From assembly GCA_963555995.3 (NCBI GenBank), contig OY821641.1:3712001-3776000 (forward strand): DNA of 64,000 nucleotides, in the 5' to 3' direction. Shown here one piece after another: positions 5,195-24,846 of this stretch (positions are counted from its first letter, which is position 1; every line of letters starts with the position of its first letter). Under the pieces are notes generated by a model. It ran no database searches. It was given only the letters and a program-made list of their open reading frames with translations, and had not been told where the DNA came from. The position numbers and the translations under genes were made by a program. This stretch comes from Vicinamibacteria bacterium. Its GTDB lineage: Bacteria; Acidobacteriota; Vicinamibacteria; Marinacidobacterales; Marinacidobacteraceae.

Positions 5195-5749
5195 ATGCCT
5201 GACCCCCCGGCCCCACCGGCAGCCCCCAAACCGGCTCCCCGGCGGGCCGCCGGCGCCGCGAAGAAGGTCACCCGCCGGGAGTTCCCGTTCCTCGCCATCG
5301 GCTGGGGAATGTTCACGGCCGCGATGGCGGCCGGCCTCACCGCGGCGGGCCGTTTCATGTTCCCGAACGTGCTCACCGAGCCGCCCTCGACCTTCACGGC
5401 CGGCTTCCCGGATGACTTCGCCATCGGGGTGGTGGACACCCGCTTCAAGGAGCGCTACCAGGTCTGGATCGTCCGGGACGAGGAGGGGATTTACGCCCTC
5501 TCCACGATCTGCACCCACCTGGGATGCACCCCGAACTGGCTGGAGGCCGAGAGCAAGTTCAAGTGCCCCTGCCACGGCAGCGGGTTCTACGCCTCCGGGA
5601 TCAACTTCGAGGGACCGGCGCCCCGGCCGCTGGAGCGGGTGGGGGTGAGTCTCGCGGAGGACGGCCAGGTCCTCATAGACAAGTCGCGCCTCTTCAAGTT
5701 CGAAGCGGGTCAGTGGTCCGACCCCGCTTCCTTCCTGTCGCTCACGTAA
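5195..5749 (+). CDS. Rieske 2Fe-2S subunit of a cytochrome bc complex
   Basis: Tat-like TRREF, CTHLGC and CPCHGS boxes, GPAPRPL. Confidence 0.95.
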
Positions 5750-5768
5750 GGCTGGAGAGGCGAGCGTC

Positions 5769-6569
5769 ATGTTGAACCGCATCCTCGCCCCTCTCTCCGC
5801 CGCTTGGAAGGAGGCGACGGACTCGCAGGTCTGGACCTCGATCTTCCGTCACGGCAAGCCGGTCAGCAACCGGAACCGGGCGCTCGTGATGATGAGCAAC
5901 GTGTTCCTGCACCTGCATCCGGTCAAGTCCCGGAAGGCGGGCATCAAGCTCCGCTACACCTGGTGCATGGGAGGCATCACGTTCTTCCTCTTCCTGGTGC
6001 TCACCTTCACCGGGCTGCTCCTGATGTTCTACTACCGGCCCACGGTGGAATACGCCTACGCGGACATCGTGGACCTGCAGGAGCACGTGCCGCTCGGCAT
6101 CATGCGGGAACTCCACCGCTGGGGCGCCCACGCGATGGTCATCACCGTGTGGCTGCACATGCTGCGCGTCTTCATGACCGGTTCCTACAAGCCGCCGCGG
6201 GAGTTCAACTGGGGCATCGGGGTGGTCCTGCTGGTGCTCACCCTGCTCCTGTCTTTCACCGGCTACCTGCTCCCTTGGGACCAGCTCGCGATCTGGGCCA
6301 TCGCGGTCGGCTCCAACATGGCGCGCGCGACACCCCTGCTCGGAACGGAAGGGCCGTTATCGGCGTCCCTCACCCTGGGGGACATCAGTCTCATCAACGC
6401 GGGGAACGACGCGCGCTTCGCGTTGCTGGGCGCCCGTTCGGTCGGCCAGCCGACGCTTCTCCGCTTCTATGTCCTCCACTGCGTCGGGCTGCCCCTGGCC
6501 GCCGCCTTCCTGATGGCGGTGCATTTCTGGCGGGTCCGCAAGGACGGGGGCATCTCGGGGCCGATGTAG
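5769..6569 (+). CDS. Cytochrome b N-terminal (b6-like) subunit
   Basis: [37 protein letters not shown]. Confidence 0.95.
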
Positions 6570-6627
6570 GTCCGTGTTCCGAATCCACGTTTGAGACAAG
6601 ACGCTTCCGCCGCGACCCGCTGAGACG

Positions 6628-7749
6628 GTGATAGACCTCTTCAAGGACCTCGTCAACTGGGCTTCGGGGCCCACGGTCCTGTTCACGATCGCGACGCTCG
6701 GCCTCCTGGCTGCCTTTCGCTTCACCCAGGTCTGGAGCAAGACCTCGGCGAAGGTGTTCTTCGTGGTCCTCGCGGTGTTCTACACCGCGAGCATGTGGGA
6801 CCCCGACTTCTTCCTGATCGTCGCGAAGCCCGACAACATCCCGATCACCGGGGTCATCTTCCTGGTCTTCTTCTTCACCTGGTACGCGATGCACCAGGGG
6901 ATCCAGAACGACCGGCGGAGCGCGGGCGAGGAAGAGGTCCTCGAGAAACAGGAGTCCGAAAAGGTCTGGGTGTGGCCCGATCTCGTCTACACCGAGATGC
7001 TCGCGATGGTGCTGCTCAGCATCGTGCTGCTGGTGTGGTCCATCCTGCTGGCGGCGCCGCTGGAGCAGCCGGCGAACCCGGCCGACTCTCCCAATCCCTC
7101 GAAGGCGCCCTGGTACTTCCTCGGGCTCCAGGAGATGCTGGTCTATTTCGACCCCTGGCTCGCCGGCGTGGTCTTCCCCACGCTGATCATCGTGGGGCTG
7201 ATGGCGATTCCCTACATCGACACGAACCCGAAGGGGAACGGCTACTTCACCTTCAGGGAGCGGAAGGCCGAGATCGTCATCTTCCTGTTCGGCTTCCTGA
7301 TCCTCTGGTGCCTGCTGGTGGTCTCGGGCACCTTCCTGCGGGGGCCCAACTGGAACTTCTTCGGCCCCTACGAGTACTGGGACGTCCACCGGGTGGAGCC
7401 GCTGCTGAACGTCAACGTCTCCGACTTCTTCTGGGTGAAGCTGCTCGGGCGTCCGCTGCCCACGGGCGGGTTCTTCGCCGCGCTCATGCGGGAATGGCTC
7501 GGCATCCTGATGGTGGGGGCCTACCTGTTCGTGCTTCCGGTGGTCATGTCGTGGCCGAGGGACCGGTTCCCCACCGGGTTCAAGTGGCTGAGCTGCCACC
7601 ACTACTTCGAAAAGATGGGCGCCACCCGCTACTACATCGGCGTCAGCCTCTTCCTGATGATGATGAGCCTGCCGATCAAGATGTACCTGCGGTGGGCTTT
7701 CAACCTGAAGTACATCGTCGCCTTCCCCGAAATTTTCTTCAACATCTAG
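6628..7749 (+). CDS. Cytochrome b C-terminal / subunit IV-like membrane protein
   Basis: PANPxxxPNPSKAPWYF (PEWY-equivalent), PYID; multiple TM helices. Confidence 0.85.
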   Translation: MIDLFKDLVNWASGPTVLFTIATLGLLAAFRFTQVWSKTSAKVFFVVLAVFYTASMWDPDFFLIVAKPDNIPITGVIFLVFFFTWYAMHQGIQNDRRSAGEEEVLEKQESEKVWVWPDLVYTEMLAMVLLSIVLLVWSILLAAPLEQPANPADSPNPSKAPWYFLGLQEMLVYFDPWLAGVVFPTLIIVGLMAIPYIDTNPKGNGYFTFRERKAEIVIFLFGFLILWCLLVVSGTFLRGPNWNFFGPYEYWDVHRVEPLLNVNVSDFFWVKLLGRPLPTGGFFAALMREWLGILMVGAYLFVLPVVMSWPRDRFPTGFKWLSCHHYFEKMGATRYYIGVSLFLMMMSLPIKMYLRWAFNLKYIVAFPEIFFNI

Positions 7750-7759
7750 GCAACCACCC

Positions 7760-10567
7760 GTGTCCAAAGTCGCTCCCGGTCACGCCCACAACATCTCGAA
7801 GCTGAATGTCATCTTCGCGGTTTCGAGCGTCTTCCTCCTGTTCTCGACGCTCTGGATGATCTGGTTCGACTACTCGCGCGAGTGGAAGGGTTTCCAGCGG
7901 CAGTTCGTCCAGATGGAGCGCGACCTCACCGCGCGGCAGATCCAGGAGGCGCAGCAGGGGATCAACCAGGCGGACCTGCAGCGCGTTCAAGGCGAACTCC
8001 AGCAGGCCCGGACCGCCCTCGCCGCCGAGCAGGCCGCGCTCGAAGCCCTCGAAACGGAGATCGCGGACCTCGACACCCGCCGGACGCTGGCGGACATCCG
8101 CGAGCGCGAGATCAAGGCGGTTTACGACTCCGACAAGTTCTACTACGAGGAGACCCGCGAGCGCGGCACGCCGCTCGGCAGGGCGGTCAGCGACGACGAG
8201 TTCCAGGCGCTCGAAGCGAGCTTCTTCGCCGCGCGCGACGTCCGGGTGGCCCTCGACTTCGACCTCACCGAGAAGCGGGCGGAACTGCGCGGCCGGCGAT
8301 CCAGCGTGACGGAACTGGCCGGAACCATGGAGGAGTTGACCCAGGCGGTGACGCTCGCCCGCAACAAGCTCGACAGCCTGGCTCCCAGCTTCCCGAACAC
8401 CTTCCGCAACCTTCCCGTCGTGGACTTCATTGACCCCTCCATCGAGGTCCGGCAGGTGCTCGTGCGGAACGTCACCGAGGAACTCAACTTCGCCCAGGTG
8501 CCGCGGATTGATCGCTGCCAGACCTGTCACCTTGGGATTGACAACCCCGACTACGCGGACGCGCCCCAGCCCTTCACCACGCACCCGAACCTGGACATCT
8601 TCGTCAGTCGCGAGTCCAACCACCCGGTGGACGACTTCGGTTGCACCTCCTGCCACCTCGGACGGGGACGCAAGCTGAGTTTCAGCGGGGCGACCCACAT
8701 GCCCGAGTCGGTCGAGGAAGAACACGCGTGGATGGAGCAGTACGGCTGGAAGGAAGACCACTACTGGGACAACCCGATGTACCAGGCGAACCTCACGGAA
8801 GCGGGCTGCATCAAGTGTCACCGCGACCAGGTCTTCATTCCCGGAGCGCAGCAGCTCAACCAGAGCCGGATGACCTATGAACTCTCCGGCTGCTGGGGAT
8901 GTCACAACACGGCCGGTTACGAGGACAAGCGGAACCGGGGACCGTCGCTCAAGCGGATCGCCCACAAGACCGACCGCGACTTCGTGGCGCGCTGGGTACG
9001 GGATCCGAAGGCGTTCCGGCAGTCCACCTGGATGCCGACCTTCTGGAATCTGGAGAACAACCCGGACTCCGAACTCCGGGCTCGCAACGACACCGAGGTC
9101 GCGGCGATCGTGGAGTACGTCTTCGAGCATTCGACCGACGACGCCGACTACCCCGCGCCCCCGCGCGGGAACGCGGAACGCGGCGAGGCGCTGGTGAACG
9201 AGATCGGCTGCCTCGGGTGCCACCTCACCGACGAGAACGGGTACGACCAGGCGAGCATCTATCGGCGCCGGGGCCCGGCGCTCGTCGGTACCGGCACCAA
9301 GCTCGACGCGGGCTTCGTCTTCGAGTGGGTACGGAACCCGCGGCACTACTGGGAAGAGACCTACATGCCGGACCTCCGGCTCACCGACCAGGAGGCTGCC
9401 GACATCACCGCCTGGCTCATGGGGCTCGAAGCGAACGAGTTCGCTTCGGCGGCGGTTCCGCAGGCGGACGCCGGCGAACTCGACGAGCTGACCCGCGAGT
9501 TCCTGCGTACCAGCCTCCCGGATGCGATGGCCGCCGAGCGTCTCGCCGGGATGTCGGAGCGGGACAAGCTGCTCTTCTCGGGTGAATGGCTGATTCGCCG
9601 CCACGGCTGCTTCGGCTGCCACGAGATCGGCGGCTTCGAGGACGCCCAGAAGATCGGCGTGGACCTCTCGACGTGGGGATCCAAGATGGTCACCCGGCTG
9701 GACTTCGGCTACATCGACATCCCGCACACGCGCCAGGCCTGGCTGGAGCAGAAGCTCGCCCACCCCCGCAGCTACGACCGGGGGAAGGTGAAGAGCCCGG
9801 CCGAGAAACTGCGCATGCCGCAGTTCGGTTTCAGCGACGGTGACCGGCAGCACATCGTGCGGAACGTGCTGGGCCTCGTGCGCGACGAGTTCCCGCAGGA
9901 GGGCACCAAGACGCTCTCCGCGGCCGAGGCGGTCGCCGAGCAGGCCCGCCACCTCATCCACAACTACAACTGCCGCGGCTGCCACCTCATTGACGGCGTC
10001 GGCGGCGGGATCTACGAAACCATCGAAGACACCGGAATGCGCCCGCCCAACCTGAACACCCAAGGCAGCCGGACGCAGGCGGACTGGCTCTACCACTTCC
10101 TCGCGGACCCCACCGAGGTGCGGTTCTGGATGAACGTCCGGATGCCGAGCTTCAACTTCACCAACGAGGAATCCAACACCCTGATCTCCGGGTTCCTCGC
10201 CATGGACGGCGCCCAGCCCTTCGACGAGGAGCAGGAACGGGTGTACGACCGCGCCGAACTGCGGGTGGGCGCCCAGCTCCTCGACCAGCTCCAGTGCGAG
10301 CGCTGTCACATCGCCGCCGCCGCCGGCACCATGGAGGCGTCGCAGCTCGCCCCGTCCTTCCGCCTCTCGGGGGAACGGCTCACCCACGACTGGATCGTGG
10401 ACTGGATGCTCGATCCGCAGGCGATCACCCCGGGAACCCAGATGCCGCAGTTCTGGCCGACCGATCAGCAGGGCAACCGGCTGACGCCGCTGCCGGACGT
10501 GCTGGACGGCGACCCGATGGCGCAGATGCGCGCGGTGGCGTCGTACCTGATGAACTACGACCGCTGA
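7760..10567 (+). CDS. Membrane-anchored octaheme c-type cytochrome
   Basis: Eight CxxCH motifs (CQTCH, CTSCH, CIKCH, CWGCH, CLGCH, CFGCH, CRGCH, CERCH); N-terminal TM helix then coiled coil. Confidence 0.92.
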   Translation: MSKVAPGHAHNISKLNVIFAVSSVFLLFSTLWMIWFDYSREWKGFQRQFVQMERDLTARQIQEAQQGINQADLQRVQGELQQARTALAAEQAALEALETEIADLDTRRTLADIREREIKAVYDSDKFYYEETRERGTPLGRAVSDDEFQALEASFFAARDVRVALDFDLTEKRAELRGRRSSVTELAGTMEELTQAVTLARNKLDSLAPSFPNTFRNLPVVDFIDPSIEVRQVLVRNVTEELNFAQVPRIDRCQTCHLGIDNPDYADAPQPFTTHPNLDIFVSRESNHPVDDFGCTSCHLGRGRKLSFSGATHMPESVEEEHAWMEQYGWKEDHYWDNPMYQANLTEAGCIKCHRDQVFIPGAQQLNQSRMTYELSGCWGCHNTAGYEDKRNRGPSLKRIAHKTDRDFVARWVRDPKAFRQSTWMPTFWNLENNPDSELRARNDTEVAAIVEYVFEHSTDDADYPAPPRGNAERGEALVNEIGCLGCHLTDENGYDQASIYRRRGPALVGTGTKLDAGFVFEWVRNPRHYWEETYMPDLRLTDQEAADITAWLMGLEANEFASAAVPQADAGELDELTREFLRTSLPDAMAAERLAGMSERDKLLFSGEWLIRRHGCFGCHEIGGFEDAQKIGVDLSTWGSKMVTRLDFGYIDIPHTRQAWLEQKLAHPRSYDRGKVKSPAEKLRMPQFGFSDGDRQHIVRNVLGLVRDEFPQEGTKTLSAAEAVAEQARHLIHNYNCRGCHLIDGVGGGIYETIEDTGMRPPNLNTQGSRTQADWLYHFLADPTEVRFWMNVRMPSFNFTNEESNTLISGFLAMDGAQPFDEEQERVYDRAELRVGAQLLDQLQCERCHIAAAAGTMEASQLAPSFRLSGERLTHDWIVDWMLDPQAITPGTQMPQFWPTDQQGNRLTPLPDVLDGDPMAQMRAVASYLMNYDR

Positions 10568-10650
10568 TCGCTTGGGATCCCTGATCGAAGCCGCACCGGA
10601 ACGCCTCAGCCTCGGCGCGTTCCGCCAGTAAACCCCAGGAGAAACACCAG

Positions 10651-11520
10651 ATGGCCGATGAACCGAAGGGAAGCCGCGGAAGTCTTCAGGGGATCGCCAT
10701 GGCGGTCGTCATCTGGGCCATCGTGGTGCTCTCGTCGCTCTACTACGTTCGCTACGGGGTGCCCGAACTGGCGTCTGATCGCGGCTATCTGGACAGCCTC
10801 TACTACGTGATCCTCGGGATCACCGGGGCCGCCTACATCCTGTACCAGCTCGCGCTCGGCTACGTCATCTACCGGTACCGCGGCGACCGGCCCGGCGCCG
10901 AGTCGAGCTACTGGCACGAGAGCCACAAGCTCGAGCTCACCTGGACGATCGGAACCGCGGCCATCATGATCCCGATCGTCTTCACCGGCCTGATCTACTG
11001 GGACCGGGTGAAGGGCCCGGCGCCGGAGGATGCGGTGACCGTGATGGCCGTCGGGGCGCAGTTCCAGTGGGACTTCCACTATCCGGGGGCGGATGGCGAG
11101 TTCGGCCGCTTCGACCCCACGCTCTACGCCATTGACAACCAGATCGGGCTCGACGAGACGGATCCGGCGGCGGCGGACGACTGGGTGCTCACCAACCAAC
11201 TGGTCATCCCGGTGAATCGTCCGACGCGCATCCTGATGCGGTCGAAGGACGTCCAGCACGCCATCTTCCTTCCCAACTTCCGCGTGAAGCAGGACCTGGT
11301 CCCGGGCATGACCACCGAGGTCTGGTTCACCCCGGTCAAGACCGGGAGCTACGAGGTGGCGTGCGCCGAGCTCTGCGGACTCGGTCACTACCGGATGCGC
11401 GCCTTCCTCGAGGTGATGGAAGAGGCCGACTACCGGCAGTGGCTGAGCGACAACGCGCCGGCCGCGGTGGCCGATGCGGCGGACCCGGCGCCGGAGGCCC
11501 CGTCCGCCTCGGCGGAATAG
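10651..11520 (+). CDS. coxB: Cytochrome c oxidase subunit II (CuA)
   Basis: DVQH and CAELCGLGHYRM CuA motif; two TM helices; AGGAG RBS. Confidence 0.95.
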   Translation: MADEPKGSRGSLQGIAMAVVIWAIVVLSSLYYVRYGVPELASDRGYLDSLYYVILGITGAAYILYQLALGYVIYRYRGDRPGAESSYWHESHKLELTWTIGTAAIMIPIVFTGLIYWDRVKGPAPEDAVTVMAVGAQFQWDFHYPGADGEFGRFDPTLYAIDNQIGLDETDPAAADDWVLTNQLVIPVNRPTRILMRSKDVQHAIFLPNFRVKQDLVPGMTTEVWFTPVKTGSYEVACAELCGLGHYRMRAFLEVMEEADYRQWLSDNAPAAVADAADPAPEAPSASAE

Positions 11521-11580
11521 GCGAAGCGGCGAGCAGGCGAACGAAGAAGCGGATCCCCCCAAGCACTACGGAGTAAAGCG

Positions 11581-13305
11581 ATGGAGCACGAAAAGCAAGG
11601 CTTCGTGAGCAAGTACATCTTCAGCTTCGATCACAAGATGATCGGCAAGCAGTACTTCACGCTCGCGATGAGCATGGGGTTCATCGGCGGGATCCTGGCG
11701 GTGCTGATCCGCCTCCAGCTCGGCTTCCCGTCGCAACCCTGGCCCTTCCTCGAGAACCTGTTTCCCGTCGGCATGGCCAGCGGGATCATGACCCCGGAGT
11801 TCTACGTCTCGCTGTTCACCATGCACGGGACGATCATGGTGTTCTTCCTGCTCTCGCTGCTCCCCGTCAGCGGTTTCGGGAACTTCCTGATTCCCCTCCA
11901 GATCGGGGCGCGGGACATGGCGTTCCCGTTCCTGAACATGCTGTCGTTCTGGACCGTGGTGCCCGGGGCGATCATCATCATCATCTCCTTCTTCGTGGAG
12001 GGCGGCGCCGCGGCCTCGGGCTGGACGGCCTACCCACCGCTCTCGGCGATCCGCAGCGCCATCCCAGGATCGGACGCCGGTCAGACCCTGTGGCTGGTCG
12101 GGATGATTTTCTTCGTGGCCTCGTTCACCATGGGCGGCCTCAACTTCGTGGTGACGATCCTGAACCTCAGGACGAAGGGGCTCCGGATGATGCGGATGCC
12201 GCTCACCACCTGGGCCCAGTTCGTGGTCGGCATCCTGGGCCTGCTGTCCTTCCCCGCGCTCGCCGCGGGCGCCCTGCTGCTGACCTTCGACCGTTCGCTC
12301 GGGACCAGCTTCTTCCTCCCGGCGGGCATCTTCATCGGCGACACGCTGATGCCCCACGAGGGCGGCACGCCGCTGCTCTGGCAGCACCTCTTCTGGTTCC
12401 TCGGCCACCCCGAGGTCTACATCATCATGCTGCCGGCCATGGGGTTCACCTCGGACATCCTGGCCACCTTCTGCCGCCGGCCCATCTTCGGCTACCGCTC
12501 GATGGTGTACGCCATCATGGCGATCGGCACCCTCAGCTTCCTCGTCTGGGGCCACCACATGTTCGTGAGCGGGATGAGCCCGTTCCTCGGCAGCCTCTTC
12601 GTGGTGACGACGCTCGCGATCGCCATCCCCTCGGCGGTGAAGGCGTTCAATTGGCTGTTCACGATCGCGCGAGCGAGGATTCAGTTCACGAGCGCCTCCC
12701 TGTTCGGGCTGGGCGTGGTGTCGCTGTTCGTGACCGGCGGCCTGACCGGCATCTTTCTGGGCACGAACGCCGTTGACATCCAGTTGCACGACACCTACTT
12801 CGTCGTCGGGCACTTTCACTTCATCATGGCGGGCGCCGGGCTCTTCGGCGCCTTCGGGGCGGTCTACTACTGGTATCCCAAGATGTTCGGGAGGATGTTG
12901 AGCGAGCGTCTCGGGAAGATCCACTTCTGGATCACGTTCGTCGCCTACTACGCGGTGTTCTTCCCGATGCACTACCTCGGCGTCTCGGGAATGATGCGCC
13001 GCATCTACGACCCGAACGTCTATGAGTACCTGCAGCCGCTCCAGCCGGTGAACCTCTTCATCACGATCTCCGCCTTCGTGCTGTTCGCCGGGCAGTTGAT
13101 CTTCATCTACAACTACTTCGCCAGCATGCGGACCGGCGCCCCGGCCACCGCCAACCCGTGGAACGCGGCCGGGCTCGAGTGGTCCACGCCGCCCCATCCC
13201 GGACACGGCAACTGGGAGGGCGAGATCCCGCCGGCCCACCGCTGGCCCTACGACTATTCCGAACCCGGCAAGAAGCGCGACTTCACGCCGCAGTGGGAGG
13301 CCTGA
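11581..13305 (+). CDS. coxA: Cytochrome c oxidase subunit I, type A1
   Basis: DHKMIG, TMHG, WFLGHPEVY, WGHHM, HDTYFVVGHFH. Confidence 0.97.
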   Translation: MEHEKQGFVSKYIFSFDHKMIGKQYFTLAMSMGFIGGILAVLIRLQLGFPSQPWPFLENLFPVGMASGIMTPEFYVSLFTMHGTIMVFFLLSLLPVSGFGNFLIPLQIGARDMAFPFLNMLSFWTVVPGAIIIIISFFVEGGAAASGWTAYPPLSAIRSAIPGSDAGQTLWLVGMIFFVASFTMGGLNFVVTILNLRTKGLRMMRMPLTTWAQFVVGILGLLSFPALAAGALLLTFDRSLGTSFFLPAGIFIGDTLMPHEGGTPLLWQHLFWFLGHPEVYIIMLPAMGFTSDILATFCRRPIFGYRSMVYAIMAIGTLSFLVWGHHMFVSGMSPFLGSLFVVTTLAIAIPSAVKAFNWLFTIARARIQFTSASLFGLGVVSLFVTGGLTGIFLGTNAVDIQLHDTYFVVGHFHFIMAGAGLFGAFGAVYYWYPKMFGRMLSERLGKIHFWITFVAYYAVFFPMHYLGVSGMMRRIYDPNVYEYLQPLQPVNLFITISAFVLFAGQLIFIYNYFASMRTGAPATANPWNAAGLEWSTPPHPGHGNWEGEIPPAHRWPYDYSEPGKKRDFTPQWEA

Positions 13306-13321
13306 TCCGGCTTCCCGGAGG

Positions 13322-13927
13322 ATGACCAAGGTGAGTTCCTGGACGGCCGGAGCCGCGGCGCCCATAGACGCGGCGCGGACCTCGTCCGACCGCCGCCACA
13401 TCAACCGGCTCGGTCTGCTCGTGGGCCTCGGCGGGATCACGATGCTGTTCGCGGCCTTCACCTCGGCCTACATCGTGCGGAGCGGGGGCGGGGACTGGGC
13501 GGCCCTCGAACTCCCTCCGGTCCTCTGGATGAGCACGGCGCTGATCGCCGCCAGCTCGCTCACGCTCGAGTTGGCCCGCCGGGCCTTCCAGCGCGGCAGC
13601 CTCCCGTCCTTCCGGTCGTGGAGCGCCGCGACCGCGGCGCTCGGGACCGGTTTCCTGGCCAGCCAGTACGCCGCCTGGCTGTCGCTGAACGCAGCCGGGA
13701 TCTACCTCCAGAGCCACCCGAAGAGTTCCTTCTTCTTCGTGTTGACCGGGGTCCACGCCGTCCACCTGCTCGCCGGTGTCGTGGCGCTGCTCGCGCTGTT
13801 CGGGCTGGCCGCCGCCGGCCGGCTCGTCCCCGGGCGTTCGGACGCGCCCACCCTGACCGCCATCTACTGGCATTTCGTAGGCGGCCTGTGGATCTATCTG
13901 CTGGCCGTACTGTCTCTTCTCGGCTGA
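13322..13927 (+). CDS. Cytochrome c oxidase subunit III-like protein (first copy)
   Basis: MLFAAFTSAY, LTGVHAVH, YWHFV. Confidence 0.88.
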   Translation: MTKVSSWTAGAAAPIDAARTSSDRRHINRLGLLVGLGGITMLFAAFTSAYIVRSGGGDWAALELPPVLWMSTALIAASSLTLELARRAFQRGSLPSFRSWSAATAALGTGFLASQYAAWLSLNAAGIYLQSHPKSSFFFVLTGVHAVHLLAGVVALLALFGLAAAGRLVPGRSDAPTLTAIYWHFVGGLWIYLLAVLSLLG

Positions 13928-13988
13928 TGTCCCCACTCGGATTTCCTGTTCGGAAACGTGACGTGAGCCGACAAGGAGAGGAGGACGC

Positions 13989-14594
13989 ATGAGCCAGACC
14001 GCGATTGCCCAGGCGGACTGGGGGGGCGGCGCCAGCCCCTTCGGTGTGACCTGGCAGAAGATGATGATGTGGTTCTTCATCGTCACCGATGCGCTGCTGT
14101 TCGCGGGCCTGCTGGTCAGCTACGGCGTGGTGCGGATTGCCACCGGCGACTGGCCGACGCAGAGCGAGGTCTTCAGCCTCACCTACATCGCGATCATGAC
14201 GTTCGTGCTGATCACCTCGTCGGCGACCATGGCGTGCGGGGTGAAGGCGGCCGAGCTCGGGCGCCCGGCGCGGGCCGCCCAGTTCGTCTGGCTCACCATC
14301 CTCGGCGGGTTCATCTTCCTCGGGATGCAGGCCTACGAGTGGTCCGTGTTCATCCACGAGGGCGGCGGCATCACCGGCAACCCGTGGGGCTCGCCCACCT
14401 TCAGCCAGTTCTTCTTCATCATCACCGGCTTCCACGGTTTCCACGTCCTCACCGGCGTGACCGTGCTGCTGGTGGTGGCGGTCCGCGCCGCCATGGGCCG
14501 CTATTCCCCCGCCGGCGTGGAGAACGCCGGCCTCTACTGGCACTTCGTGGACCTGGTCTGGGTCTTCGTCTTCGCCCTCTTCTACCTGGTCTAG
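13989..14594 (+). CDS. coxC: Cytochrome c oxidase subunit III (second copy)
   Basis: MMWFFIVTD, TGFHGFHV, GLYWHFVDLVW. Confidence 0.9.
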   Translation: MSQTAIAQADWGGGASPFGVTWQKMMMWFFIVTDALLFAGLLVSYGVVRIATGDWPTQSEVFSLTYIAIMTFVLITSSATMACGVKAAELGRPARAAQFVWLTILGGFIFLGMQAYEWSVFIHEGGGITGNPWGSPTFSQFFFIITGFHGFHVLTGVTVLLVVAVRAAMGRYSPAGVENAGLYWHFVDLVWVFVFALFYLV

Positions 14595-14604
14595 GAGAAG
14601 CCAA

Positions 14605-14922
14605 GTGTCCAGCGACGCCCATCCCTACCGCTTCTACTGGCTCCTCTGGGTCGTGCTCCTCGCCGTCACCCTCCTCATGATCGCCATCGAGGGAGCCAAC
14701 CTCCCCGCCGCCCTGGCGGTCCTCGTCCTGCTCTTCGGATCGGCGATCAAGGCGACCCTCATCATCTTCTACTACATGCACCTGAAGTTCGAGCACATGG
14801 GTCTGATCATGACGGTGCTGGTCGGCCTGTTCGTCACCGCCATCCTGATGTTCGTGCTCCCGGCCTACGACGGCGGCCACATTCTCGAATCGTGGCAAAG
14901 CCTCAAGGAGTACTCGGGCTGA
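14605..14922 (+). CDS. Cytochrome c oxidase subunit IV family protein
   Basis: Three TM helices, KATLIIFYYMHLKFE. Confidence 0.85.
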   Translation: MSSDAHPYRFYWLLWVVLLAVTLLMIAIEGANLPAALAVLVLLFGSAIKATLIIFYYMHLKFEHMGLIMTVLVGLFVTAILMFVLPAYDGGHILESWQSLKEYSG

Positions 14923-14927
14923 CCGCG

Positions 14928-15227
14928 ATGTCCCGTTCCGGTCTCCTCGTCCTGATCGCGGTGGCGCTGCTCGCGCTGTTGTCCTCCGACGCGGCCGCCC
15001 AATGCTCCATGTGCCGGACCGCGCTCGAGCAGAACGAGGAGGCGGCGGCCGGCTTCAACCGGGCCATCCTGTTCCTGCTGGTGATGCCCTACGCGGTCTT
15101 CGCCTCCGGCGCCGGCTACGTGCTGGTGACGCGCCGGAGACGCGCGCGGCAGTCCGCCGCCACGGCAGCTCCGGAAGTCCGCGCCGAACTGCTTCCCGCT
15201 GACGATCCGATCGGCGCCACGTCCTGA
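14928..15227 (+). CDS. Small membrane protein with QCxMC motif, possibly oxidase-associated
   Basis: Signal-like N-terminus, AQCSMCR, one TM helix; last gene of the cox run. Confidence 0.6.
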   Translation: MSRSGLLVLIAVALLALLSSDAAAQCSMCRTALEQNEEAAAGFNRAILFLLVMPYAVFASGAGYVLVTRRRRARQSAATAAPEVRAELLPADDPIGATS

Positions 15228-15237
15228 CCACGCCGAG

Positions 15238-15303
15238 TCACTCCTCGCCCGGGATCGCGTAGTAGCCGTTCCGGGTCCGGGTCGTCAGGTCCCGGCGCCC
15301 GCG
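15238..15303 (-). repeat. Diverged duplicate of the last 22 codons of the VWA gene
   Basis: Gap-free match to 15456-15521, 53/66 nt; RGRRDLTTRTRNGYYAIPGEE* versus RGRRDLLARTRNGYYAFPSEE*. Confidence 0.92.
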
Positions 15304-15305
15304 GC

Positions 15306-15355
15306 TTGGAACGCCGGTCTCCAGACCGGCACGCGCGGCGCTCCGCGCCGCGCAC
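15306..15355 (+). repeat. REP-like double-hairpin element
   Basis: TTGGAAC-GCCGGTCT-CC-AGACCGGC followed by GCGCGGCGC-TCC-GCGCCGCGC; recurs throughout the window. Confidence 0.9.
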
Positions 15356-15455
15356 AGCGCAGCCCCACCCACCCCAAGAGCTTGCATGGTTTGGCCCGGA
15401 TGCCCCCGGGCCGGCACCCGGCCCGCTCTCAAGCCCGGGTATCGCGGGCTTTCGG

Positions 15456-16505
15456 CTACTCCTCGCTCGGGAATGCGTAGTAGCCGTTCCGGGTTCTAGC
15501 CAGCAGGTCGCGGCGCCCCCGGACCGACACCTCGATCTCGCGCCACTCGCCCTCCCGCTCCGCCTCTCGCGGGACGTAGCCCAGCCGGTACTGGGCGTGC
15601 ATGTCCGCCTCGATCCGGGCGAAGCTGCCGATGAGATCGCCGGTCCGCTCCGGGAAGAGCGCCTGACCGCCGGTTTCTTCCGTGAGCCGGCGCAGGAACC
15701 GCTTGTTGACCCGGGCGCCGTTTCCTTCGAACCCGATGGCGTAGACGACGGCGTCCGTGAGCCGGGCGGCCTCGATGGCGTCCCCGGCGCCCATCTCGCT
15801 CCCGAAGCCCATGCTCCGCGAGTCGTCGCCGTCGGTGAAGATCAGGAGCGCCTTCCGGTCCCCGTCGGCGAAATGGAGCCGCTCGAGGGCCATGATCGAG
15901 GCGTCGTAGAGCGCGGTCGGCCCAAGCGGGTTGAGGGCCATGATGTTGGCAGTGAGCCGGAAGCGGTCGTCAGTGAACTCGCCCCCGAACCGGACCCGGT
16001 CGTTGAACTCGCCGATCATCGCGACGTCGCCCTCCCACAACCGGTCCACGAAGGTGGCGGCGGCTTCCTTCACGTAGTCGAGGCTCACCCTCATGCTCAG
16101 GGAGGCGTCGAGCAGCACCAGGATCGTGAGCGGGGCCGCCTCGGCCGCGAAGAAGCTGATCTGCTGGGGAACTCCGTCCTCGCGAACCACGAAATCGTCG
16201 GCGGTCAGACCGGAGACGAAGCGCCCGCGCTCGTCGCTGACCGCCACCCCCAGGTTGACCGCCTCCACCTGCACCTGGATGCGGAAGGGGTCCTGAGTCT
16301 GACGGACCGCCGCGGCCGCGAGAGTCCCCAGGATGGCCGCGGAGAGAGCCGCGGCCAGACCTGGCGCCGCGTTTCGGCGTATCCACCGGGACGTTCGCAA
16401 AGTTCCCCTCGACTCCGGGTATTTTGTCTCGCGGAAGGGGTCCGTGGTTGATGGACCCCGTGGGCCGTCTGTTTGGTCCGGATTCGAGATCAAGACAGGC
16501 TCCAA
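15456..16505 (-). CDS. VWA-domain protein of acidobacterial type (start uncertain)
   Basis: MIDAS DASLS, TALYDA, FTDGDD, ETGG, C-terminal RxGYY. Confidence 0.88.
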   Translation of the reverse strand: MEPVLISNPDQTDGPRGPSTTDPFRETKYPESRGTLRTSRWIRRNAAPGLAAALSAAILGTLAAAAVRQTQDPFRIQVQVEAVNLGVAVSDERGRFVSGLTADDFVVREDGVPQQISFFAAEAAPLTILVLLDASLSMRVSLDYVKEAAATFVDRLWEGDVAMIGEFNDRVRFGGEFTDDRFRLTANIMALNPLGPTALYDASIMALERLHFADGDRKALLIFTDGDDSRSMGFGSEMGAGDAIEAARLTDAVVYAIGFEGNGARVNKRFLRRLTEETGGQALFPERTGDLIGSFARIEADMHAQYRLGYVPREAEREGEWREIEVSVRGRRDLLARTRNGYYAFPSEE

Positions 16506-16660
16506 GACCCGCGGGCTGCTACAATTCCCGGCTCGAATCGGGGCGAAACCGCCCCACCGAGTCGGTTTCCCGGCTGTCAGTTGCGGCCCGAGTCTGTCAG
16601 GCCCACCGGTTGCGGACCGCGGTTCATTCCCCTGCCCACGGAACGGAGGTTCCCCGCAAG

Positions 16661-21832: not shown

Positions 21833-24259
21833 ATGCGGCCGATTTCCGCCACTACCAAAGCCATCCTCTTCCTCATCCTGCCGGCGCTCGCGGGCGCGCA
21901 GCTCCGCTCGCAGTCGGAACTCACCGCCGCCGACGCCGATCCCGGCTTCCGCCTGACCCTCGATCATCTCGGCGGCGGCAACCGCGTCTTCGGCCTGGCT
22001 CCGCGCGACCTGCGCTGGGCCCCGGACGGTTCCGAGGTCTATTTCCGCTGGCGCGAGGATCCGAAACCCGACCAGCTCGCCGACGACGATCCGTGGTTTG
22101 CGGTGGACCGGGCGGGAGGAGCCCTGCGGGAGTTGAGCGAGGACGAGGTCGGCCTCGTCCCGGGATCGAACGCGGTCCGGACCGTCTCGGGAGACACGGC
22201 CGCCTGGAGCCGGCAGGGCTCGCTCTACGTCTGGACGGAGGACGGGGGAACGCGTCCGGTCTTCGCGGTCGCCGGCCAGATCGGACAGCTCCGGCTCCGT
22301 CCCGACGGCAGCAGGGTCCTCTTCGCCACCAAGGGTCTCTCGGCGAACGCGCCCGAGAGCGGAGATCTTTGGGAACACGACGTCGCCTCCGGCGCCACCC
22401 GCCAGCTCGCGGTGGTGGTCCCCGCGAAGGAGGAGGAGACCGACCAGCAGACCTGGCTCAAGGCGCAGCAGAACGAACTCGTCCAGGTCGTCCGCGAACG
22501 CAAGGAACGGGACGAACGCCGCGACCAGCTCCGCCGGGACCAGAACGGCCTCCTGCCCCAGGAGATTCCGGTCCCCAAGGGTGAGAAGGCGGTGGACATC
22601 CGCGTGTCACCGGACGGCAAGCACCTCGTCTTCCGGTCGCGCAAGGACCCCTCGGACCCGAAGCGCACCAGCTTCATGGAGTTCGTGAACGAGAGCGGGC
22701 AGGCCACCGAGAAGGACGCCCGTCCGAAGGTCGGCGAAACCCTCCCGTCGTGGCGCCTCGGCATCGTGGCGGTGGACCGCGCCGTCCGCACCGAGGACAT
22801 CGAGATCCGTTGGGTCGAGGACGGCATCGAGAAGGACACCGTGATGCACGGCCCCTGGTGGAGCCCGGACGGGAAGCACGGGGCGGTGCAGGTGCTCTCC
22901 ATGGACCACAAGGAGCGCTGGATCTCGCTGCTCGATGTCGAGTCCGGAACGCTGCGCCACGTGGACCACCAGCAGGAGGAAGCCTGGATCGGCGGGCCGC
23001 TGGTGACCGGCCGCTGGTCGCCGGGGTACCTGGAGTGGCTGCCGGACAGCCAGGCGTTCGCCTTCGGGTCGGTGGCGAGCGGCTGGGCGATGCTGATGCT
23101 CGCGAACCTCGAGGGAGAGGTCACGGCGCTTACCGAGGGCCAGTTCGAGGTGCGGCGCGCCGAGCTCGCGCCGGGCGGCGACTCGTTCCTCGTCACCACC
23201 AGCCGCGAGCATCCCGGCGAGGAGCACCTCTACCGGCTGCCGGCGCGCGGCGGCGCCCTCGAGCAGATCACCGGGGGCGAGGGAATGCACTCCTGGGCCG
23301 TCGCTCCCGACGGTGGGCGGGTCGCTGCGATCAGCCAGTCGCTCACCGAGATGGGCGATCTCTACCTGATGGACCCGGTGGCCGCTGCCGAGCCGGTACG
23401 GATCACGAAGAGCGGCACCGACGCCTTCTACCGGACCGCCTGGGCCGGCAGCGAGATCGTCGAGTACGACCTGCCCGACGGCACGACGGCGTGGGCCCGG
23501 ATCTGGGACACGCCTGCCGGGGCCACCCCCGGTGCGACGCCCGCCGTGGTCTATGCCCACGGCTGCGGCGAGTGCGCCCAGGCGGTGGTCAAGGGCTGGG
23601 CGCGCTCGGGCAGCATCGTCTATGCGAACTACCTGATCCAGCGCGGCTACGCGGCGGCCTCGGTGGACTACCGGGGAAGCTCCGGCTACGGACACCGGAA
23701 CCGCACCTACGCCTACCGCCAGATGGGGGTCTCGGACATCGACAGCGCGCTGCCGCTGCTGGACATCCTGGCGGACCGCCACGGCGTCGCGCGCGATCGC
23801 ATCGGGGTCTACGGCGGCTCCTACGGCGGCTTCTTCACCCTCATGTCCCTCTTCCGGAATCCGGGCAGCTACGCCGCGGGCGTCGCCCTCTACCCGGTCA
23901 CCGACTGGGTCCACTACAACCAGGGCTACACGAGCCGGATCCTGAACGGCGACCAGCTCGACGACGAGGAGGCCTATCGGGTCTCGAGCCCGGTCTACTA
24001 CGCGGACGGGTTACAGGACGCGCTCCAGATCCAGCACGGCCTCGTGGACGGCAACGTCCAGATCCAGGACTCCTTCCGCCTCGCCCAGATCCTCATCGAG
24101 AAGCAGAAGGACTTCGACCTGGTCGTCTATCCGGTCGAGGACCACGGCTGGGACGAGATCCCCACGCGCCGCGACAGCTACCGCCGCATGACCGACTTCT
24201 TCGACCGCTACCTCAGCGGCGGCTCCGGAGGCACACCCCCGACCACGGACCCACGATAG
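21833..24259 (+). CDS. S9-family prolyl oligopeptidase / dipeptidyl peptidase
   Basis: Beta-propeller repeats; DYRGSSGYG, GGSYGG, HGLVDGNV, EDH. Confidence 0.92.
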   Translation: MRPISATTKAILFLILPALAGAQLRSQSELTAADADPGFRLTLDHLGGGNRVFGLAPRDLRWAPDGSEVYFRWREDPKPDQLADDDPWFAVDRAGGALRELSEDEVGLVPGSNAVRTVSGDTAAWSRQGSLYVWTEDGGTRPVFAVAGQIGQLRLRPDGSRVLFATKGLSANAPESGDLWEHDVASGATRQLAVVVPAKEEETDQQTWLKAQQNELVQVVRERKERDERRDQLRRDQNGLLPQEIPVPKGEKAVDIRVSPDGKHLVFRSRKDPSDPKRTSFMEFVNESGQATEKDARPKVGETLPSWRLGIVAVDRAVRTEDIEIRWVEDGIEKDTVMHGPWWSPDGKHGAVQVLSMDHKERWISLLDVESGTLRHVDHQQEEAWIGGPLVTGRWSPGYLEWLPDSQAFAFGSVASGWAMLMLANLEGEVTALTEGQFEVRRAELAPGGDSFLVTTSREHPGEEHLYRLPARGGALEQITGGEGMHSWAVAPDGGRVAAISQSLTEMGDLYLMDPVAAAEPVRITKSGTDAFYRTAWAGSEIVEYDLPDGTTAWARIWDTPAGATPGATPAVVYAHGCGECAQAVVKGWARSGSIVYANYLIQRGYAAASVDYRGSSGYGHRNRTYAYRQMGVSDIDSALPLLDILADRHGVARDRIGVYGGSYGGFFTLMSLFRNPGSYAAGVALYPVTDWVHYNQGYTSRILNGDQLDDEEAYRVSSPVYYADGLQDALQIQHGLVDGNVQIQDSFRLAQILIEKQKDFDLVVYPVEDHGWDEIPTRRDSYRRMTDFFDRYLSGGSGGTPPTTDPR

Positions 24260-24720: not shown

Positions 24721-24846
24721 CGAGGCTGCGGACCCTCAAAACTCAGCACAGCCCCGTGGACGGGCACGTCCAGACCAAGGACTCCTTCCGGCTGGCCCAG
24801 ATCCTCATCGAGAGGCAGAAACCTCGACCTGTCGGCTACCGGCGAG
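24721..24846 (+). pseudogene. Decayed duplicate of the near-3' part of the S9 peptidase gene
   Basis: QHSPVDGHVQTKDSFRLAQILIERQK versus QHGLVDGNVQIQDSFRLAQILIEKQK (about 24007-24140); small deletions distally. Confidence 0.9.

What the first reader, a model, noticed from the sequence alone, without database searches (positions are those of the whole stretch)
15238..15521. VWA gene: displaced 3' end abuts the REP element and has the more host-like codons
Seen: 66-nt gap-free duplicate with 13 mismatches, its own stop (TGA vs TAG) and 17/21 identical residues. Similarity stops 2 nt from the TTGGAAC start of the REP-like hairpin. The orphan copy uses CGG, GCG, ACC where the active end uses AGA, GCA, GCT. 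Inference: the orphan is the original terminus, the active end is incoming DNA, and the REP marks the junction.
Basis: partly seen in the sequence, partly recalled or inferred. Interest (0 to 1): 0.7.

Follow-up and report, generated by a model that had tools for sequence, protein, structure and literature searches.

The report
Repeat-anchored swapping of gene ends
A bacterial gene carries a leftover second copy of its last 21 codons that butts against one fixed end of a common hairpin repeat, a pattern that recurs at several other genes (gyrB among them) in this genome and its relatives, and that likely records incoming DNA being joined at the repeat, possibly by the repeat's own transposase.

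Summary
The duplicate is real: 66 nt, 13 mismatches, 17/21 residues, ending 3 nt before the GGAA tag of a RAYT-associated REP (1,112 strict copies).

It is not a one-off. Duplicated gene ends abut the tag (5') side of this REP at 9 loci of this genome (gyrB, proS, citrate synthase among them) and at 3 further loci in 1.6 Mb of a sister genome. An unbiased scan gave 6 of 37 without the index case, against about 2% background (P about 1e-4). At all 6 other loci that could be polarised, the orphan is the resident end.

At the VWA locus, sister genomes show the ancestral layout, decayed orphan remnants and a hydantoinase-like cargo gene. This favours "orphan = original" (about 75%), but flank divergence is not decisive. 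The codon argument is weak.

Best model: incoming DNA is joined at the REP's 5' side and recombines homologously at its other end. The polarity fits HUH (RAYT) strand transfer, but RAYT involvement is inferred and no common cut motif was found. Earlier scan notes described this REP family, not this pattern; seven literature searches found no description of it.

The parts
14928..15227 (+). Small CxxC membrane protein gene closing the Rieske/cytochrome b/oxidase operon; clade-A type up to its stop
   Evidence: ORF; no Pfam hit; 84-88% nt to the nine closest congeners
15228..15237 (.). 10-nt spacer between the two convergent stops; similar spacer next to remnants or stops in G006, G004, G013
   Evidence: read by eye
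15238..15304 (-). Orphan 3' end of the VWA gene (RGRRDLTTRTRNGYYAIPGEE*), intact frame, no start; likely the displaced resident end
15302..15304 (+). CGG shared by the gene (15520-15522) and by the usual REP 5' flank (CGGCT[TG]GGA): possible microhomology, so the exact joint is uncertain by about 3 nt
15305..15375 (+). REP unit: CTT, GGAA tag 15308-15311, hairpin 15313-15330, second hairpin 15333-15353, 3' extension
15376..15455 (.). Spacer X between the REP and the active stop; the 20-30 nt next to the stop match the sequence after the VWA stop in G002, G005, G006 and G012
15456..15522 (-). Active 3' end of the VWA gene (RGRRDLLARTRNGYYAFPSEE*); likely incoming. The insert unit is 15305-15522 (218 bp)
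15456..16388 (-). Acidobacterial VWA-domain gene (start uncertain: 16274 by my gene caller; frame open to 16505)
   Evidence: PF13519; TIGR03436 177 bits, cut-off 81

Best explanation
The 218-bp insert is likely the scar of a one-ended gene-end replacement, in which DNA from a related lineage was likely joined at the 5' (tag) side of its REP to a point 66 nt inside the resident VWA gene and likely recombined homologously further up the gene, so that the incoming tail now ends the gene and the resident tail is stranded beyond the REP. Read on the REP strand the product is always [resident piece] | REP - X - [homologous incoming piece]. Shown: the anatomy, its recurrence and polarity, and resident identity of the orphan at six other loci. 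Inferred: the direction at this locus, uptake as single-stranded DNA, and the catalyst. The most likely catalyst is the genome's RAYT, because HUH cleavage leaves the enzyme on the 5' end of the REP-bearing fragment and a 3'-OH from the chromosome can resolve it. Whatever lies between the REP and the homologous gene would ride along as cargo.
For: Recurrence. Unbiased end-duplicate scan: 5 of 21 hits in G000, 2 of 14 in G014 and 0 of 3 in G008 have the tag within -2..6 nt of the joint, against about 2% of non-coding positions; 6 of 37 without the index case, P 1.1e-4 (proS counted). Polarity. Strict REP-anchored scan in G000: 5' flank with partner 3' of the REP 7 of 863; 5' flank with partner 5' of it 0 of 879. 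Independent events at one other gene in G010, G009/G008 and G006 all end 1-4 nt from the tag. Direction. gyrB: 6 clade-A genomes are uninterrupted with the orphan's upstream context, 4 carry the insert, and the active start's upstream resembles G001/G002/G013. The same holds for the dienelactone-hydrolase-like gene, C1:3439040, proS, G014:333960 and C1:174825. At this locus: short direct VWA-to-small-gene spacers in G009, G016 and G019; remnants in 5 of 10 clade-A genomes; orphan versus G008/G009/G013 is 7 synonymous to 2 non-synonymous, so it was coding for most of its history. Machinery: RAYT over the NF047646 cut-off (97.7 against 80), flanked by arrays of this REP, homologue in 12 of 15 congeners; ComEC and DprA present. 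Chemistry: passages of PMC8266576 and PMC3333891.
Against: No RAYT activity was tested. Joints lie 0-5 nt from the tag with no common cut dinucleotide (by-eye comparison). In vitro, E. coli TnpA-REP cuts both 5' and 3' of the REP, which does not by itself predict a one-sided pattern. Most end-duplicates have no REP at the joint (31 of 38, many of them paralogue or tandem arrays), and G014:16651 is a clean cargo insertion with a displaced tail and no recognisable REP. Two gene fragments lie 30-50 nt past the 3' side of a REP (window 24744; C1:923385). Flank divergence does not fix the direction here. The orphan's intactness is only moderate evidence of recent use: the chance of at most one amino-acid change under neutrality is 0.06-0.34. 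The orphan's Thr-Thr and Ile are shared with clade B and could be derived states. Five of the 11 other loci could not be polarised.
Confidence: 0.6

Rival explanations
1. Ordinary homology-facilitated illegitimate recombination without RAYT catalysis: incoming single-stranded DNA is trimmed back to a hairpin (or to a protein bound on it) and joined through microhomology such as CGG/CCGG.
For: CGG or CCG(G) microhomology at the VWA, C1:3439040, proS and gyrB joints. Spread of 0-5 nt. REP-free displaced tails exist. The mechanism was proposed for displaced orphans in Vibrio (PMC5361080 passages).
Against: A bare hairpin forms on both strands and predicts orphans on both sides. Tightly abutting cases were seen only on the tag side.
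Confidence: 0.17
2. Two steps: a REP first inserts inside the gene near its end, then an intact allele that has a REP beside the gene rescues it by two homologous crossovers, one in the gene and one in the REP.
For: Needs only REP insertion plus RecA. Relatives have same-orientation REPs about 85-105 nt after the VWA stop. It could explain the fragments on the 3' side.
Against: Predicts both polarities about equally, against 12 loci on the tag side and at most 2 loose ones on the 3' side. Needs a transiently broken gyrB or proS, which are essential genes (established knowledge).
Confidence: 0.1
3. The reverse or an older history at this locus: G000 once had the cargo allele, and either lost the cargo by recombination between its two same-orientation REPs or received the small gene plus the orphan from a lineage with the ancestral layout.
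For: The more basal G002 already has the active tail type and the cargo. The REPs on both sides of the cargo share orientation in G012. G000's small gene is slightly more divergent than its neighbours.
Against: G000's orphan is intact while relatives' remnants are heavily decayed. The small gene is clade-A type to its stop. All 6 polarised sister loci have a resident orphan. Cargo loss alone would still leave the REP-orphan joint to be explained.
Confidence: 0.1
4. A target-site or tandem duplication within one chromosome, followed by drift; or an assembly artefact.
For: Some loci do show secondary tandem copies (proS, G014:887204).
Against: Homology stops at the stop or start codon and the far flanks differ even where the coding copies are 24 of 24 identical. 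Both tail types exist as functional ends in other species. Contigs of public runs carry each side with no differences and equal depth.
Confidence: 0.03

Closest known systems
REP/BIME/REPIN elements with RAYT (TnpA-REP) HUH transposases (passages read: PMC8266576, PMC3333891, PMC6006769, 10.1101/2021.07.10.451892)
   Same: High-copy intergenic hairpins with a 5' tag and a single RAYT flanked by them; 5'-phosphotyrosine / 3'-OH strand transfer fits the product's polarity.
   Different: The tag is GGA[AG], not GTAG. The passages read describe REP or BIME amplification and vertical inheritance, and call the dissemination mechanism unresolved. They do not describe replacement of neighbouring gene ends or cargo entry from other lineages.
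Homology-facilitated illegitimate recombination, e.g. displaced effector/immunity and Rhs orphans (PMC5361080, passages)
   Same: One homologous anchor, one illegitimate joint, and the resident sequence shifted downstream as an orphan.
   Different: Here the illegitimate joint is pinned to the tag side of one repeat family, and housekeeping genes (5' and 3' ends) are hit.
e14 prophage in icd, leaving icdC (PMC13626634, passages)
   Same: A diverged replacement 3' end, with a C-terminal fragment on the far side of the insert.
   Different: No integrase or prophage; 218 bp; many unrelated target genes.
   Same: Long diverged direct repeats flank the cargo; in the ISCR case an HUH enzyme makes one end.
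   Different: No restriction-modification genes or transposase in the insert; the duplicated part stops at gene boundaries.

Membership tests
REP/RAYT system | High-copy, mostly intergenic short palindrome | tested here: met
   1,112 strict copies against 10 in the reversed control; 1,121 of 1,311 cores intergenic
REP/RAYT system | Conserved tag 5' of the hairpin foot | tested here: met
   GGA[AG]C precedes the stem; the flank is CGGCT[TG]. The search pattern included the tag, but the unbiased 16-mer count shows it too
REP/RAYT system | Canonical GTAG/GTGG tag | tested here: not met
   The tag is GGAA or GGAG
REP/RAYT system | RAYT gene with HUH and Tyr motifs flanked by the same repeat | tested here: met
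   C1:751165-751821, NHVH and YVRNNP, NF047646 97.7 against cut-off 80, REP arrays on both sides
REP/RAYT system | RAYT cleaves and transfers this REP | not testable with these tools
   needs an in vitro assay
Homology-facilitated illegitimate recombination | One homologous and one non-homologous joint, resident DNA kept or shifted | tested here: met
   anatomy and uninterrupted sister alleles
Homology-facilitated illegitimate recombination | Microhomology at the joint | tested here: inconclusive
   CGG/CCG(G) at 4 joints, none evident at others; donor flanks are unknown
Homology-facilitated illegitimate recombination | Joint not tied to a dedicated cis element (recalled feature) | tested here: not met
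   about 9-fold enrichment at the REP tag
Homology-facilitated illegitimate recombination | Natural competence | tested here: inconclusive
   ComEC and DprA genes present; uptake not shown
Integrase-mediated insertion restoring a gene's 3' end (e14/icd type) | Integrase-bearing element between the two copies, one fixed att site | tested here: not met
   no gene called between the copies; at least 9 unrelated target genes
Transposon target-site duplication | Initially identical short repeats independent of gene boundaries | tested here: not met
   copies end at start or stop codons with different far flanks

The most novel reading that the evidence does not exclude
RAYT catalyses one-ended integration of incoming chromosomal DNA at REP 5' ends. 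REPs then act as portable integration ends that move themselves, new gene ends and cargo genes (a hydantoinase-like gene, an HTH protein, a channel-like gene) between species, while homologous recombination keeps even essential genes intact. This would be an in vivo function and a spreading route for REP-RAYT systems.
Probability: 0.4. Interest if true: 0.87.

Novelty: new variant of a known kind. Interest (0 to 1): 0.7.

Why it matters
[quoted passage not shown] Displaced gene ends are datable, polarised footprints. They give a cut-site window (0-5 nt 5' of GGA[AG]), a strand, and a donor/recipient assignment. That makes 'RAYT joins incoming DNA' directly testable in vitro and by the same scan in E. 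coli, Pseudomonas or Stenotrophomonas. It would also be a route for gene gain and for swapping starts, ends and ribosome-binding sites of core genes that needs homology on one side only.

Tried and rejected
1. Codon bias as a donor marker: rejected as weak.
2. Origin from another VWA paralogue: rejected.
3. Sliding-window identity across window 11.6-17.4 kb did not fix the direction at this locus. The rpoBC tree places G000 basal in clade A with 0.95 local support; G002, G013 and G015 were not in it.
4. An allele lacking the insert: none in four runs' contigs. These are one study and probably include the source sample. Contigs drop rare variants, none spans the REP, and the orphan-REP contig has only 27 letters on the REP side (under the tool's 31), so this shows neither absence nor a formal bridge.
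6. No Rfam match and no sigma-70 promoter or intrinsic terminator pattern in 15150-15600.
7. A single cut motif (C|T, C|C, T|T) fitting all joints: not found by eye.
8. The loose REP pattern gave 2,701 matches, many by chance; it was replaced by a strict one. The strand label was wrong for minus-strand genes and was corrected.
9. In one search, 10 of the 14 G000 hits on the 3' side are REP-array or gene-calling artefacts, 1 is weak, 1 is the C1:698475 case (which abuts a degenerate tag) and 2 are real fragments. One of the 4 G014 tag-side hits is a REP-extension artefact. The 2 G014 hits with the partner on the 5' side come from a tandem paralogue array.
10. G008 was sampled at only 0.4 of 4.2 Mb and G014 at 1.6 of 3.6 Mb; G008 gave no tag-abutting case, with only about 25 strict REPs testable.
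11. Literature searches found no description of REP-tag-anchored gene-end displacement; the library lacks most subscription papers. No supplements were read.

Full report
**Observation.** The window is C1:3712001-3776000 of a 3.8-Mb, 70% GC genome. The gene is an acidobacterial VWA-domain gene (TIGR03436, 177 bits against a cut-off of 81) that converges on the last gene of a Rieske/cytochrome b/oxidase operon. The 66-nt duplicate, 13 mismatches, two stops and 17 of 21 residues are as reported. It is far beyond chance (E 2e-12; best of 2000 shuffles 27 mismatches). The match ends at 15304, three bases before the GGAA tag.

**The repeat.** It has 1,112 strict copies against 10 in the reversed genome. 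The same family forms arrays on both sides of a single RAYT gene that passes the NCBIfam cut-off. A homologue was found in 12 of 15 congeners. Earlier scan notes on this genome had reached the REP/RAYT reading; I had tested it before seeing them.

**Orthologues.** Of 15 congeneric VWA orthologues, 10 end in the active type (LLAR...FP) and 5 in the orphan type (LTTR); 4 from other genera have LTAR. G000 belongs with the first group on both flanks (91-92% against 84-86%) and is basal in it by rpoBC. In G009, G016 and G019 the VWA stop lies close to the small operon gene, which is the ancestral layout. In 9 of the 10 active-type genomes the end of an amidohydrolase gene follows the VWA stop. The G014 copy scores 384.9 on the dihydropyrimidinase model, just under its 393 cut-off, and G000 has no orthologue (best 36%). 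G010 carries a different 226-aa channel-like gene (named by eye). Decayed remnants of an orphan tail follow the small gene in 5 of the 10: weak blast hits in G007, G011 and G010, by eye only in G006 and G003. In G007 and G011 the remnant again abuts a REP tag, at other positions. G000's orphan differs from G008, G009 and G013 by 7 synonymous and 2 non-synonymous changes, so it was coding for most of its history. Its intactness argues only moderately for recent use (P 0.06-0.34). Sliding-window divergence is not decisive. I put 'orphan = resident' here at about 75%.

**Codons.** AGA, GCA and GCT are rare (0.6% of Arg; 2.1% and 2.8% of Ala). But the active tail's CAI of 0.57 is at the 18th percentile of 2,301 tails, and 7 of 10 relatives with the same tail type score 0.86-0.93. 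The bias marks G000's copy (AGA and TAG are shared with G011), not the tail type.

**A genome-wide pattern.** A scan of 2,747 gene tails against their downstream 4 kb found 20 hits of at least 22 bits against 0 of 2,636 controls, several abutting the REP tag. An unbiased scan of both gene ends gave 21 hits in G000, 14 in 1.6 of 3.6 Mb of G014 and 3 in 0.4 of 4.2 Mb of G008, with no rows dropped. Seven have the tag within -2..6 nt of the joint, against about 2% of non-coding positions (P 1.3e-5; 6 of 37 without this locus, P 1.1e-4), and none lies in the window 3' of a REP (proS placed; one hit at 7 nt not counted). A strict REP-anchored scan in G000 gave 7 of 863 for '5' flank, partner 3' of the REP' and 0 of 879 for the opposite direction. 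Of 14 hits on the 3' side, 2 are real gene fragments 30-50 nt from the hairpin.

Pooling the scans, G000 has 9 tag-abutting loci: VWA, a dienelactone-hydrolase-like gene (C1:2738819), C1:3439040, citrate synthase, proS, gyrB, C1:1053449, C1:174825 and a degenerate case at C1:698475. G014 adds 333960, 887204 and 1366573. Gene names other than VWA are read from translations, not from HMM searches. Tails always have the REP on the opposite strand and heads on the same strand, so the joint is always on the tag side. At C1:3439040, G010 (249 nt, 89%), G009 (246 nt, 96%), G008 (25 nt) and G006 (139 nt, 93%) carry their own versions, 1-4 nt from the tag. Those of G008, G009 and G010 share a position and may be one event.

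**Direction elsewhere.** Six of the 11 other loci could be polarised, and all six make the orphan the resident end. The hydrolase orphan equals G014's uninterrupted tail and G007's flank, while the active tail occurs in none of 14 relatives. C1:3439040, proS, G014:333960 and C1:174825 keep the native flank on the orphan. For gyrB, 6 clade-A genomes are uninterrupted with the orphan's context, 4 have the insert, and the new start's upstream resembles G001, G002 and G013. Because homology stops at start or stop codons even where the copies are 24 of 24 identical, these are two alleles, not target duplications.

**Mechanism (inferred).** On the REP strand the product is resident piece | REP - X - homologous incoming piece. 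HUH enzymes leave a 5'-phosphotyrosine on the downstream fragment, which a 3'-OH resolves (PMC8266576, PMC3333891; passages). A cut just 5' of the tag gives exactly this joint, and RecA would finish the other end. ComEC and DprA are present. A donor of the common clade-A type has such a REP about 85-105 nt past the VWA stop: a cut there brings the tail without the cargo (G000), and a cut at the far REP brings the cargo too (G007, G011). Against this: no activity test, no common cut motif, in vitro cutting on both sides of the E. coli REP, REP-free displaced tails and two loose fragments on the 3' side. The rivals are hairpin-trimmed illegitimate recombination, REP insertion followed by rescue, and cargo loss or the reverse direction at this locus.

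**Reads.** Contigs of X21 and X22 cover 14600-15330 and the stretch from inside the REP onward with no differences and equal depth, and no joint skips the insert. They come from one study, probably include the source sample, and do not span the REP.

**Comparison and novelty.** It works like homology-facilitated illegitimate recombination (PMC5361080, passages) and looks like icd/icdC (PMC13626634, passages). It differs from the first in a joint pinned to a repeat's tag and from the second in having no integrase or att site. PMC6006769 (passages) lists RAYT classes, but I did not place this protein in one. Seven searches found no paper on this pattern in an open-access library, and a word search of earlier scan notes found none. 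Verdict: a new variant of a known kind, interest 0.7.

Noticed in passing
window 24744-24846 (+): A decayed copy of part of the 3' region of the S9 peptidase gene (21833-24259), 85% over 108 nt, lies after a REP array, 30-50 nt past the 3' side of a hairpin. No such copy was seen in the 14 relative loci examined, several of them short. A possible counter-example to the polarity.
   Followed up: partly
G000 C1:3474400-3474600 (L261); L253, L254, L256: The gyrB start is duplicated around a REP in 4 of 16 congeneric genomes; the new start has a different upstream sequence, resembling other lineages.
   Followed up: yes
G000 C1:2765900-2766310 (L075): The proS start is present three times: a native-flank orphan plus a 158-bp tandem unit of REP, spacer and start.
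   Followed up: yes
G000 C1:371800-372830 (L074): The citrate synthase tail is displaced by about 1 kb carrying an HTH-like gene, with a second short tail remnant about 260 nt after the stop, suggesting successive events.
   Followed up: partly
L153 (G014 C1 about 15800-16650): A ribbon-helix-helix / PIN-like toxin-antitoxin pair (named by eye) is inserted with a displaced 42-nt peptidase tail and no recognisable REP; G000 has the uninterrupted allele.
   Followed up: partly
G000 C1:177800-179100: A 254-nt, 94% duplicate of the 3' end of a large gene flanks two small low-GC ORFs, with no REP at the joint.
   Followed up: no
window 13300-16300 across L021-L040: Strong mosaicism among sister species: G007 and G011 are 98% identical in rpoBC but 85% in the small operon gene.
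   Followed up: partly
L036-L038, L233-L252: Clade-B genomes carry a second, longer repeat family, often inside the 3' end of the small operon gene; in G001 a 101-nt citrate synthase orphan abuts a different hairpin.
   Followed up: no
window 5195-15227: A respiratory operon with Rieske protein, split cytochrome b, multihaem cytochrome c and oxidase subunits; an earlier scan note covers it in another genome.
   Followed up: no
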